Part shown: positions 7,254-7,636 of the stretch, in pieces
Layout of the letters: each line of letters starts with the position of its first letter
How positions within the stretch are numbered: the stretch's first letter is position 1
Origin: a virus
Lineage: Duplodnaviria > Heunggongvirae > Uroviricota > Caudoviricetes
DNA: 13,134 nt
Virus record (IMG/VR): IMGVR_UViG_2681813271_000010
Reading direction: 5' to 3' (one strand)
Notes under the pieces: model-generated
Told to the model about the DNA's origin: nothing
Database searches by the model: none
What the model saw: only the letters and a program-made list of their open reading frames with translations
Translations under genes and position numbers: made by a program

Positions 7254-7409
7254 TTACTTCCTGGATTCGTAGTCTACGAAGACAGCGACCTCCGTCTGGC
7301 CGGTTCGGATTCGTACCTCACAGAGGTCTTTCCTCGTTACCAGTGCCGTCACTATGACGGTTAAACAGATGACGATCAGGGCGATTAACATCGCCTTTTG
7401 CTGCTTCAT
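7254..7409 (-). CDS. hok: Hok/Gef-family type I toxin (HokD/RelF-like)
   Basis: ATG at 7409-7407 with AAGGAGAAG upstream. MKQQKAMLIALIVICLTVIVTALVTRKDLCEVRIRTGQTEVAVFVDYESRK: single TM helix followed by the conserved LCEVRIRTGQTEVAVF motif. An in-frame upstream ATG at 7466 extends the frame 19 codons. Confidence 0.85.
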   Translation of the reverse strand: MKQQKAMLIALIVICLTVIVTALVTRKDLCEVRIRTGQTEVAVFVDYESRK

Positions 7410-7636
7410 AGCCTGCTTCTCCTTGCCTTTCGGCATGTAAGAGGCTAACCTACATGTGCAAAGCATGAAATTGGCCTCAGATTAATGTTAAGCGTCTTGC
7501 CGGACGCGTAATGTTAACTGGGGCTTTTCTCTATCTGCCTTTTGGTGTTCATGCCTGAAGCAGATAGCCTCAAGCACCCGCAGTCATTCTACTTACCTCG
7601 CCAATATGAAATCAATCAGAAAGGTGCCCCATAAAA

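What the first reader, a model, noticed from the sequence alone, without database searches (positions are those of the whole stretch)
7254..7636. hok-family type I toxin with a 230-nt upstream leader that should encode a Sok-like antisense RNA
The Hok/Gef peptide is intact with a strong ribosome-binding site and a downstream terminator. The leader has an in-frame upstream ATG (7466) where an overlapping mok-like frame would be expected, a direct repeat TAATGTTAA (7484-7492, 7509-7517) flanking a GCGTC/GACGC hairpin, and no annotated antitoxin. Chromosomal hok loci in laboratory strains are often inactivated; this one looks intact and sits in a prophage where it could stabilise the element or abort infection.
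Basis: partly seen in the sequence, partly recalled or inferred. Interest (0 to 1): 0.45.

Follow-up and report, generated by a model that had tools for sequence, protein, structure and literature searches.

The report
Known hokW/sokW-type prophage toxin–antitoxin locus
This is an ordinary, complete copy of the well-known hok/mok/sok toxin–antisense-RNA module, a close relative (91% DNA identity) of the experimentally studied hokW-sokW of Shiga-toxin phages, sitting in a lambda-like prophage.

Summary
Window 7134-7615 (minus strand) holds a complete hok/mok/sok type I toxin-antitoxin module. It is 100% identical to E. coli FDAARGOS_943/944, where RefSeq annotates only the toxin, as hokD. Its leader is identical to that of Shigella flexneri SFBU1023. 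It is 91% identical to hokW/mokW/sokW of phage 933W/Sp5. That locus has carried a sokW annotation in the 933W record AF125520, and it was shown in 2021 to be a working type I system.

All family hallmarks are present:
- a Hok peptide (Pfam 81 bits), one residue different from HokW;
- an in-frame 70-codon mok;
- a leader that matches Rfam RF01794 (117 bits);
- a 5' tac element complementary to a 3' fbi element, with compensatory changes across 19 loci;
- an antisense Sok gene, predicted on the plus strand at 7458-7528. The annotated sokW and sokC starts both map to 7458.

Local peculiarities are a 10-nt deletion in the hok promoter spacer, a 23-nt insertion in the terminator loop and a diverged Sok 5' tail. 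Expression and toxicity of this allele were not tested. Interest is low.

The parts
7610..7615 (-). hok promoter, candidate -35 hexamer TTGATT
   Evidence: The consensus scan found TTGATT-18-TAGAAT, 9 of 12 matches. Relatives (O18, E. albertii) instead use TTGGCG at a 17-nt spacing. The window lacks 10 nt of that spacer, so this -35 is a replacement and is not validated.
7586..7591 (-). hok promoter -10 hexamer TAGAAT
   Evidence: Found by the scan. It is conserved in 933W, O18, E. albertii and S. flexneri paralogue L012. It ends 7 nt before the mRNA 5' end at 7579.
7134..7579 (-). Full-length hok mRNA, about 446 nt (predicted)
   Evidence: The 5' end is position 1 of the Rfam RF01794 model. 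The 3' end is the U-run of the terminator. The whole-transcript MFE is -189.6 kcal/mol, z = -8.4, with the 5' end paired to the 3' fbi element.
7568..7579 (-). tac (translational activator) element, GGGUGCUUGAGG, at the mRNA 5' end
   Evidence: It has three mutually exclusive partners: fbi at -21.5, the adjacent metastable partner at -16.4 and ucb at -10.7 kcal/mol. It is invariant or compensated in 19 loci.
7550..7562 (-). Partner of tac in the metastable / nascent 5' hairpin
   Evidence: The MFE of the 3'-truncated transcript folds nt 3-13 onto nt 19-29. The duplex energy is -16.4 kcal/mol.
7519..7527 (-). ucb / anti-SD box AAAGCCCCA
   Evidence: It pairs with the mok SD region in the full-length MFE and is alternatively complementary to tac at -10.7 kcal/mol. 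GCCCC is invariant across 18 loci.
7475..7478 (-). mok Shine-Dalgarno GAGG
   Evidence: GAGGC is invariant in 18 loci. It lies 8 nt upstream of the mok ATG.
7442..7478 (-). Sok-target (sokT) hairpin of the hok mRNA, with loop CUUUGCA
   Evidence: It corresponds to the Rfam consensus helix GAGGC...GCCUC. The local fold is -13.6 kcal/mol. The loop contains a YUNR-type UUUG; the U-turn reading comes from knowledge of R1 and was not tested.
7254..7466 (-). mok reading frame, 70 codons, in frame with hok and containing it
   Evidence: ORF list. The start coincides with the annotated mokW (933W) and mokC (K-12) starts. It differs from MokW at 3 of 70 residues.
7418..7423 (-). hok Shine-Dalgarno AAGGAG
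   Evidence: Seen directly in the sequence. CAAGGAG is conserved in most of the 18 aligned loci.
7254..7409 (-). hok toxin gene, 51 codons plus stop
   Evidence: Pfam HOK_GEF 81.1 bits. PHROG 251 'MokW-like host killing', 112.5 bits. 50 of 51 residues are identical to HokW (E50R) and 46 of 51 to K-12 HokD. RefSeq names the identical protein HokD, WP_014532198.1.
7218..7245 (-). GC-rich hairpin GGGCGGGGA / UCCCCGCCC just after the hok stop; likely the 3' protective stem of the processed mRNA
   Evidence: It is formed in both MFE folds. Relatives keep a hairpin here with a different sequence. Its role is inferred from the R1 model (PMC9841398).
7184..7198 (-). fbi (fold-back inhibition) element UCCUCAACGCACCCG
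   Evidence: It forms 12 bp with one bulge against tac, -21.5 kcal/mol; 5 of 1000 shuffled 3' UTRs do as well. The same pairing occurs 45-65 nt after the stop in all 19 loci. Compensatory changes include GGGUGC/GCACCC to GGGCGC/GCGCCC and GAGG/CCUC to GAGA/UCUC.
7134..7178 (-). hok transcription terminator with an enlarged loop
   Evidence: Fold energy -22.8 kcal/mol, z = -4.96, followed by U6. It carries a 23-nt insertion in the loop relative to the O18-type loci.
7423..7428 (+). Sok promoter -35 hexamer TTGCCT
   Evidence: CTTGCC is invariant in 18 loci. It lies 17 nt from the -10. It overlaps the hok SD on the other strand.
7446..7451 (+). Sok promoter -10 hexamer TAACCT
   Evidence: It is identical to the sokW sequence. 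In sokW these are the bases replaced in the 'pro-less' mutant that lost antitoxin activity (inferred from primers YO-421 and YO-422). It matches only 3 of 6 consensus positions and was not reported by the consensus scan.
7458..7528 (+). Sok antisense RNA (predicted antitoxin), about 71 nt
   Evidence: The annotated sokW (933W) and sokC (K-12) both map to a start at 7458. sokW ends at 7528 and sokC at 7534. The fold shows a 9-nt free 5' tail, a long interrupted stem-loop and a U-rich tail: -30.2 kcal/mol, z = -4.98, against -19.9 for the complementary strand. The same strand asymmetry holds in 18 of 18 loci. 5 of 13 consensus pairs show compensatory changes.
7483..7517 (+).
   Evidence: In the Sok fold, UUAAUGUUA pairs with UAAUGUUAA through two G-U pairs. 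These pairs would be A-C mismatches on the hok strand. The roughly 18-nt extension is absent from hokC and from the Erwinia, Pantoea and Photorhabdus loci. It is present in the hokW/hokD clade.

Best explanation
The region is a complete hok/mok/sok type I toxin-antitoxin module of the hokW/hokD subfamily, carried as an accessory gene in a lambdoid prophage. It lies between the replication genes plus queH and the nin/Q region.

What the sequence and comparisons show:
- A weak promoter (7615-7586) would start a roughly 446-nt hok mRNA at 7579.
- The 5' tac element of that mRNA can pair with the 3' fbi element (7198-7184).
- The mok Shine-Dalgarno sequence can pair with the ucb box.
- The opposite strand encodes a roughly 71-nt RNA (7458-7528) with its own conserved promoter. 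This RNA has a free 5' tail, a long hairpin and a U-tail.

What is inferred from the R1 hok/sok model and from hokW-sokW experiments:
- The closed full-length mRNA is neither translated nor bound by Sok.
- Slow 3' trimming removes the fbi element. The tac element then re-pairs with ucb, which frees the mok SD and the Sok-target hairpin.
- Abundant but unstable Sok pairs with the mok translation-initiation region. This blocks mok-coupled hok translation, and the duplex is cut by RNase III.
- When Sok synthesis stops, the stable mRNA pool is translated. This can happen on loss of the element or, as shown for sokW, on prophage induction.
- The 51-aa Hok peptide then inserts into the inner membrane and kills or lyses the cell.
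For: Identity:
- The region is 100% identical to E. coli FDAARGOS_943/944, where hokD is annotated next to queH.
- Its leader is identical to that of S. flexneri SFBU1023.
- It is 91% identical to hokW/mokW/sokW of 933W.

Family features:
- Pfam HOK_GEF scores 81 bits and PHROG 251 scores 112.5 bits.
- Rfam RF01794 scores 117 bits against a gathering score of 59 over the whole model.
- The mok start coincides with the annotated mokW and mokC starts, and the Sok start with the annotated sokW and sokC starts.
- tac and fbi pair in the unconstrained MFE of the full transcript, z = -8.4. This pairing is conserved with compensatory changes in 19 loci from Escherichia, Shigella, Kluyvera, Citrobacter, Erwinia, Pantoea and Photorhabdus.
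- tac has three alternative partners with graded stability. The metastable 5' hairpin appears once the fbi element is removed.
- The Sok-strand fold is 5-14 kcal/mol better than the complementary strand in 18 of 18 loci, and the Sok hairpin shows covariation.

Experiments on the orthologue (PMC8621323):
- HokW is toxic.
- sokW expressed from its own promoter neutralises it.
- sokW RNA is seen on Northern blots.
- The sokW -10 bases mutated in that study are identical in the window.

Family mechanism: PMC9841398.
Against: - Nothing about this particular allele has been measured.
- The window lacks 10 nt between the ancestral -35 and the -10 of the hok promoter. hok transcription may therefore be weaker or depend on read-through from queH.
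- The terminator loop carries a 23-nt insertion.
- The Sok -10 (TAACCT) matches only 3 of 6 consensus positions and was not found by the promoter scan.
- The host prophage is decayed, with an IS4 insertion in the window and IS1, IS600 and IS2 in the identical E. coli locus. Selection on the module may therefore be relaxed.
- The MFE of the arbitrarily truncated transcript did not show the tac-ucb 'open' conformation.
Confidence: 0.9

Rival explanations
1. The locus is a decaying remnant. The sequence elements are all recognisable, but the 10-nt promoter deletion and the altered terminator, in an IS-ridden defective prophage of a Shigella-type genome, mean that hok is no longer expressed from its own promoter. 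On this view the module no longer acts as a toxin-antitoxin system.
For: - The 10-nt deletion removes the spacing between the ancestral -35 (TTGGCG) and the -10 that O18 and E. albertii use.
- The terminator loop carries a 23-nt insertion.
- IS4 lies inside the window, and IS1, IS600 and IS2 lie in the identical E. coli locus.
- Chromosomal hok loci of K-12 are known to be inactivated. K-12 hokD lacks everything upstream of its SD.
Against: - The deletion brings another acceptable -35 (TTGATT) to an 18-nt spacing, giving 9 of 12 matches.
- The ORFs are intact, and tac, fbi, ucb, the mok SD, the Sok promoter and the Sok hairpin are all present.
- The terminator still folds at -22.8 kcal/mol and has a U6 tail.
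- The same allele is kept unchanged in at least four genomes.
Confidence: 0.15
2. The TAATGTTAA direct repeats flanking a small palindrome are the footprint of a separate insertion: a target-site duplication around a miniature mobile or palindromic element that landed in the hok leader. On this view they are not a functional part of the antitoxin RNA.
For: - The 9-bp direct repeats flank a stretch of about 17 nt that hokC and the more distant hok loci lack.
- The inner hairpin occurs in both orientations in different lineages, as an invertible palindrome would.
Against: - The two 'repeats' align with the two arms of the Sok hairpin that every family member has.
- They pair with each other in the Sok strand through G-U pairs.
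- The extension continues that stem coaxially. It is conserved across Escherichia, Shigella, Kluyvera and an unnamed Enterobacteriaceae isolate, with a compensated closing pair (G-C to A-U in L029).
- The pattern occurs nowhere else in the window.
Confidence: 0.05
3. The structured RNA is only the sense-strand leader. This is the literal reading of the Rfam 'sok' hit on the minus strand. On this view there is no separate antisense transcript, and control of hok is purely by cis-acting mRNA folding.
For: - The RF01794 hit is on the same strand as hok in the window and in 19 related loci.
- The consensus promoter scan finds no plus-strand promoter.
Against: - The Rfam model simply represents the hok leader in sense orientation. 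It begins at tac and ends on the hok AUG.
- The GenBank and RefSeq annotations of sokW and sokC are on the opposite strand.
- The complementary strand folds much better in all 18 loci because of G-U pairs.
- sokW RNA was detected, and its promoter mutation unleashed toxicity.
Confidence: 0.03

Closest known systems
hokW / mokW / sokW of Stx2 phages 933W and Sp5 (VT2-Sakai), GenBank AF125520; functional study PMC8621323
   Same: - 91% DNA identity over the module.
- Hok is identical at 50 of 51 residues and Mok at 67 of 70.
- The Sok hairpin, the terminator tail and the Sok -10 and -35 hexamers are identical.
- The 16-nt stem extension is the same.
- The mok and Sok start positions are the same.
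   Different: - 7 of the 71 Sok nucleotides differ, all within the first 16 nt. These cover the recognition tail and lower stem, which correspond to mok codons 2-4 and the spacer between the mok SD and the start codon.
- The hok promoter region upstream of the -10 and the 3' end beyond the fbi element are unrelated.
- The position in the phage genome differs. In 933W the module sits in an accessory region near one end of the map. Here it follows queH in the early-right region.
hokD (relF) of the E. coli K-12 Qin cryptic prophage
   Same: - The toxin subfamily is the same: 46 of 51 residues identical.
- The 3' UTR with the fbi element and the terminator stem is the same.
- The host is the same type of prophage. 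RefSeq gives the window's gene this name.
   Different: - K-12 hokD has lost everything upstream of the hok SD: the promoter, tac, ucb, mok and the Sok gene. It is fused behind relBE.
- The window copy retains the full regulatory leader.
hokC (gef) / mokC / sokC of E. coli K-12
   Same: The architecture and element order are the same, including an in-frame mok and identical tac and ucb sequences. sokC maps to the same start.
   Different: - hokC lacks the roughly 18-nt extension of the Sok hairpin.
- In K-12 it has IS186 inserted about 20 bp after the stop codon.
- It lies in a chromosomal rather than a prophage context.
hok/sok of plasmid R1 (parB), the type system
   Same: The window has the same logic as the mechanism summarised in PMC9841398: tac/fbi closure, ucb/anti-SD, 3' processing, mok-coupled translation, Sok antisense RNA and RNase III cleavage. 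Each sequence element of that scheme has a counterpart in the window.
   Different: - The toxins are only distantly similar. HokW is 44% identical to R1 Hok according to PMC8621323.
- From my recollection of the R1 sequence (not checked with the tools), mok is out of frame with hok in R1, whereas it is in frame here.
- R1 hok/sok is plasmid-borne and acts in post-segregational killing.

Membership tests
hok/sok type I toxin-antitoxin family | Small hydrophobic Hok/Gef toxin (about 50 aa, one transmembrane helix, conserved C-terminal part) | tested here: met
   Pfam PF01848 scores 81.1 bits against a cut-off of 22, covering the full model. PHROG 251 scores 112.5 bits. The NCBIfam Hok subfamily hit is below its cut-off, 55 against 73 bits. 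RefSeq nevertheless names the identical protein HokD.
hok/sok type I toxin-antitoxin family | Overlapping upstream mok reading frame with its own SD, through which hok is translated | tested here: met
   A 70-codon ORF starts at 7466, with GAGG 8 nt upstream. Its start is identical to the annotated mokW and mokC starts. Translational coupling itself cannot be tested here.
hok/sok type I toxin-antitoxin family | Conserved structured hok mRNA leader | tested here: met
   Rfam RF01794 scores 117 bits against a gathering score of 59, E = 1e-26, covering model positions 1-157. The same hit, ending at the hok AUG, occurs in 19 of 20 related loci.
hok/sok type I toxin-antitoxin family | Long-range tac (5' end) / fbi (3' UTR) pairing that closes the full-length mRNA | tested here: met
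   A 12-bp duplex of -21.5 kcal/mol; 5 of 1000 shuffles do as well. It is formed in the unconstrained MFE. It is conserved with compensatory substitutions in 19 loci.
hok/sok type I toxin-antitoxin family | Alternative pairings of tac (metastable 5' hairpin; tac/ucb) and ucb/mok-SD sequestration that give the folding switch | tested here: inconclusive
   The complementarities exist: metastable -16.4 and ucb -10.7 kcal/mol. ucb pairs with the mok SD in the full-length MFE, and the metastable hairpin forms in the truncated MFE. The open tac/ucb conformation was not the MFE for the truncation point I chose, and the true 3' processing site is unknown.
hok/sok type I toxin-antitoxin family | Cis-encoded antisense Sok RNA (about 60-70 nt, free 5' tail plus hairpin) with its own promoter, complementary to the mok translation-initiation region | tested here: met
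   This rests on homology and structure. sokW and sokC map to 7458. The -10 and -35 are identical to those of the validated sokW. The fold and strand asymmetry are, and covariation is. Actual transcription was not measured.
hok/sok type I toxin-antitoxin family | Toxicity of Hok, neutralisation by Sok, RNase III cleavage of the duplex and 3' exonucleolytic activation | not testable with these tools
   Toxicity, neutralisation and partial RNase III and Hfq dependence were shown for the orthologue hokW-sokW (PMC8621323). They have not been shown for this allele.
hokW/hokD subfamily (prophage-borne) | HokD/HokW-type toxin sequence, an extended Sok hairpin with the GCGTC/GACGC insert, and residence in a lambdoid prophage | tested here: met
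   50 of 51 residues match HokW. The extension is shared with 933W, O18, E. albertii and Kluyvera. The prophage genes are identified.

The most novel reading that the evidence does not exclude
The only non-trivial readings left open concern specificity and triggering. Neither was tested experimentally.

(a) Orthogonal Sok specificity.
- The Sok 5' tail and its target loop form a hypervariable specificity determinant. Its nucleotide diversity is pi = 0.28, against 0.03 in the Sok hairpin and 0.06 in the hok CDS.
- The three hokW/hokD-type modules that coexist in one Shigella flexneri genome would then be mutually orthogonal. The 9-nt tail duplexes are -13.4 to -13.9 kcal/mol for cognate pairs and -2.7 to -5.8 for non-cognate pairs.
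- Each prophage would thus keep its own addiction or lysis-timing switch.

(b) Triggering by prophage induction.
- In this prophage context hok is co-oriented with the early-right operon.
- Read-through transcription on induction could therefore silence the convergent Sok promoter and titrate Sok.
- That would explain the unexplained RecA-dependent loss of sokW reported in PMC8621323.
Probability: 0.25. Interest if true: 0.35.

Novelty: already known. Interest (0 to 1): 0.1.

Why it matters
It matters little as a discovery. The hok/sok family is a textbook system. The hokW-sokW subfamily carries a sokW annotation in the 933W record AF125520 and was characterised in 2021.

The practical value lies in annotation:
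- RefSeq records with this exact sequence list only the toxin, as 'hokD'. They omit mok and the Sok antitoxin, which can be placed at 7458-7528 on the plus strand.
- Anyone using the Rfam family called 'sok' should know that it models the sense-strand hok leader, not the antisense RNA.

The locus is also an intact counterpart of the truncated K-12 hokD. It shows what was lost in the laboratory strain.

Tried and rejected
- Terminator scan. The consensus scan found no terminator after hok. Folding showed one with an enlarged loop, so the negative scan result was set aside.
- Promoter scan. The consensus scan did not report a plus-strand Sok promoter. I placed it by homology to sokW and sokC and by its conservation, not from the scan.
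- Target-site duplication. I considered whether the 9-bp direct repeats are a target-site duplication around an inserted mini-palindrome. I rejected this because the repeats are the two arms of the universal Sok hairpin and pair through G-U pairs.
- Source of the window. I looked for the exact source among complete E. coli genomes. The best record covers only 74% of the window at 99.1% identity. The window therefore probably comes from a Shigella-type genome with different IS insertions. S. flexneri SFBU1023 and 'E. coli' ECMA0423 have identical 261-nt leaders, but their 1-kb cores are not exact matches.
- Open conformation. Folding an arbitrarily 3'-truncated mRNA (to 7199) did not reproduce the open tac/ucb conformation. 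The real processing site is unknown, so I left this inconclusive.
- NCBIfam. The NCBIfam Hok models score below their cut-offs. I judged this uninformative given the strong Pfam and PHROG hits.
- R1 hok/sok. I did not retrieve the R1 sequence for direct alignment. Comparison with R1 rests on the literature and on my own recollection.
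Full report
**What is in the sequence**

All hok features below are on the minus strand.
- A 51-codon ORF runs from 7409 to 7254. It is preceded by AAGGAG at 7423-7418.
- An in-frame ATG at 7466 extends this ORF to 70 codons.
- The 9-mer TAATGTTAA occurs twice, at 7483-7491 and 7509-7517. 0.10 matches are expected by chance.
- The two copies flank GCGTC (7492-7496) and GACGC (7503-7507).
- After the stop codon come a GC-rich hairpin (7245-7218), a conserved block, and a stem ACCCGCC/GGCGGGU with a 25-nt loop followed by U6 (7178-7134). 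The last structure folds at -22.8 kcal/mol, z = -4.96. The simple terminator scan missed it because of the loop size.

**Identity**

- The peptide is a Hok/Gef toxin: Pfam PF01848 at 81.1 bits against a cut-off of 22, and PHROG 251 'MokW-like host killing' at 112.5 bits.
- Window 7100-7700 is 100% identical to two complete E. coli genomes, FDAARGOS_943 and 944. RefSeq there annotates only 'hokD' (WP_014532198.1), downstream of queH.
- About 729 further genomes carry a version that is about 92% identical.
- Shigella flexneri SFBU1023 and strain ECMA0423 have an identical 261-nt leader.
- Among phages, the locus is 91% identical to hokW/mokW/sokW of Stx2 phage 933W. That GenBank record, AF125520, annotates all three genes, including the antisense RNA.
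- Hok differs from HokW by one residue (E50R). Mok differs from MokW at 3 of 70 residues.

**Context**

- The window is a lambdoid prophage read right to left.
- In order it holds a CI-type repressor (12316-12723, plus strand), YdaT, a DnaC/IstB-like YdaV, DUF977, QueH (8323-7637), and hok.
- After hok come a 95-aa ORF, DUF1367, YbcO, a DUF1133 gene interrupted by IS4 (transposase 4190-5536), antiterminator Q, ORF6N, a second DUF1133 gene, four tRNAs and a holin.
The prophage is partly decayed.

**Leader and long-range structure**

- Rfam RF01794 matches 7579-7404 on the minus strand at 117 bits against a gathering score of 59, over the full model.
- Although this family is called 'sok', the model is in the sense orientation of the hok mRNA. 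In the window and in 19 of 20 related loci the hit lies on the hok strand. It starts with GGGUGCUUGAGG and ends on the hok AUG.
- Position 1 of the model (7579) lies 7 nt after a TAGAAT -10 hexamer (7591-7586), which is paired with TTGATT at an 18-nt spacing.
- The first 12 nt (tac) are complementary to UCCUCAACGCACCCG at 7198-7184 (fbi). The duplex is -21.5 kcal/mol, and 5 of 1000 shuffled 3' UTRs do as well.
- This pairing closes the unconstrained MFE of the 446-nt transcript: -189.6 kcal/mol, z = -8.4.
- I repeated the test on 18 further loci from Escherichia, Shigella, Kluyvera, Citrobacter, Erwinia, Kalamiella, Pantoea, Photorhabdus and a MAG. All have the tac-fbi duplex 45-65 nt after the stop codon.
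- Compensatory changes support the pairing. GGGUGC/GCACCC becomes GGGCGC/GCGCCC, and UUGAGG/CCUCAA becomes UUGAGA/UCUCAA.
- tac also has a metastable partner immediately downstream (7562-7550, -16.4 kcal/mol) and a weaker partner in the ucb/anti-SD box (7527-7519, -10.7).
- ucb pairs with the mok SD in the full-length fold. The metastable hairpin forms when the fbi element is removed.
- These are the elements of the R1 folding-switch model as summarised in PMC9841398.

**The antitoxin**

- I aligned the window with 933W, E. coli O18, K-12 hokC and K-12 hokD and transferred the annotated coordinates.
- Both sokW and sokC then start at window 7458 on the plus strand. They end at 7528 and 7534 respectively. 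mokW and mokC both start at 7466.
- Upstream of 7458 lie TTGCCT (7423-7428), a 17-nt spacer and TAACCT (7446-7451).
- Judging from primers YO-421 and YO-422, the TAACCT bases are the ones replaced in the 'promoter-less' sokW construct that lost antitoxin activity. They are identical in the window.
- The predicted 71-77-nt RNA has a 9-nt free 5' tail, a long interrupted hairpin and a GGGGCUUUUCUCU tail. It folds at -30.2 kcal/mol, z = -4.98.
- The complementary (hok-sense) segment folds at only -19.9 kcal/mol, because two pairs in the stem are G-U.
- The same strand asymmetry, 5-14 kcal/mol, holds in all 18 aligned loci.
- 5 of 13 consensus pairs show double compensatory changes.

- The two TAATGTTAA copies are the two arms of the Sok stem. 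UUAAUGUUA pairs with UAAUGUUAA through A-U and G-U pairs.
- GCGTC/GACGC is an inner extension of that stem.
- The extension, about 18 nt, is absent from hokC and from the Erwinia, Pantoea and Photorhabdus loci. It is present throughout the hokW/hokD clade.
- It is therefore a lineage-specific lengthening of the Sok hairpin, not a separate element and not a transposon footprint.

**How it most likely works**

- Shown here: all the sequence elements, their complementarities and their conservation.
- Inferred from R1 (PMC9841398) and from hokW-sokW (PMC8621323):
  - The full-length mRNA is locked by the tac-fbi pairing.
  - 3' trimming frees tac, which opens the mok SD and the Sok-target hairpin (7478-7442, loop CUUUGCA).
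  - Sok binds through its 5' tail, blocks mok-coupled hok translation and leads to RNase III cleavage.
  - When Sok synthesis stops, Hok is made and damages the inner membrane.
- For the orthologue, HokW was toxic and sokW neutralised it, partly dependent on RNase III and Hfq.
- sokW RNA disappeared on RecA-dependent prophage induction, and the module roughly doubled phage release.

**Peculiarities of this allele**

1. A 10-nt deletion in the hok promoter. Relative to O18 and E. albertii, the window lacks TGACGTGAGT between the ancestral -35 (TTGGCG) and the -10. A different -35 candidate, TTGATT, now sits at an 18-nt spacing. This could weaken hok transcription and is the main reason to keep a 'decaying remnant' rival at about 0.15.
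2. A 23-nt insertion in the terminator loop.
3. A diverged Sok 5' tail. Seven of the 71 Sok positions differ from sokW, all within the first 16 nt.
   - Across nine clade members this segment is the most variable part of the module: pi = 0.276, against 0.027 in the hairpin and 0.059 in the CDS.
   - S. flexneri SFBU1023 carries three such modules with different tails. Cognate 9-nt tail duplexes are -13.4 to -13.9 kcal/mol and non-cognate ones are -2.7 to -5.8.
   - This fits insulation between co-resident copies, but it is untested.

**Comparison and verdict**

- The closest known system is hokW/mokW/sokW of 933W/Sp5.
- K-12 hokD (relF) is the same gene stripped of its entire leader.
- hokC/mokC/sokC has the same layout without the hairpin extension.
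- Every defining feature that can be tested in silico is met. The conformational-switch detail is inconclusive, and the biochemical steps cannot be tested here.
- The finding is real and correctly interpreted, but it is already known. Its value is limited to correcting the annotation: mok and Sok are missing from RefSeq, and the Rfam 'sok' model is in sense orientation.
- I score interest at 0.1.

Noticed in passing
window 7404-7579 (minus strand); also L007-L050: The Rfam family RF01794, named 'sok antitoxin', actually models the sense-strand hok mRNA leader from the tac 5' end to the hok AUG. In the window and in 19 of 20 related loci the hit lies on the hok strand. Automatic annotation from this model would put 'sok' on the wrong strand and make it about twice too long.
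   Followed up: yes
window 7492-7507; L027 and L029 (hok leader): The 16-nt inner hairpin of the Sok stem occurs in both orientations. The window's hok-sense GCGTCCGGCAAGACGC is identical (16 of 16) to the Sok-sense sequence of Kluyvera genomosp. 3 (L027). L029 is the flipped form of the O18-type, with its closing pair compensated. This looks like a hairpin-loop inversion polymorphism.
   Followed up: partly
window 7458-7478 (plus strand); L007, L012 and L014 of S. flexneri SFBU1023: The Sok 5' tail and its target loop are the most variable segment of the module (pi = 0.276). Three co-resident paralogues in one Shigella genome have different tails but identical hairpins. This suggests insulated specificities.
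   Followed up: partly
window 7592-7609, compared with L002 and L008: The spacer of the hok promoter carries a 10-nt deletion (TGACGTGAGT) relative to the common E. coli and E. albertii allele. The deletion is shared by S. flexneri SFBU1023, ECMA0423 and FDAARGOS_943/944.
   Followed up: partly
window 7086-7113 (minus strand): A second promoter-like site uses the same hexamers as the hok promoter (TTGATT-16-TAGAAT). It lies just after the hok terminator and upstream of the 95-aa ORF 7004-6717 (PHROG 340, function unknown).
   Followed up: no
L046 250-397 and L049 362-389: CRISPR-DR4 repeats (RF01317) lie directly upstream of the hok leader in Erwinia sp. CGal63 and Kalamiella. A hok/sok module there abuts the end of a CRISPR array.
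   Followed up: no
window 3040-3123 (minus strand); L050 976-1065: The window has an sRNA-Xcc1 (RF02221) match at 77 bits, between the Q antiterminator gene and the ORF6N gene. A second match lies downstream of a hok locus in Erwinia tracheiphila.
   Followed up: no
window 4190-5536 (plus strand) and 5280-5912 (minus strand): An IS4-family transposase gene interrupts a DUF1133 gene of the prophage. An intact second DUF1133 gene lies at 1948-2502. The closest complete E. coli genome has IS1 at the corresponding place instead.
   Followed up: no
window 7637-8323 (minus strand): An epoxyqueuosine reductase QueH gene (Pfam 220 bits) is carried by the prophage immediately upstream of hok. The queH-hok pairing recurs in about 729 E. 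coli genomes.
   Followed up: no
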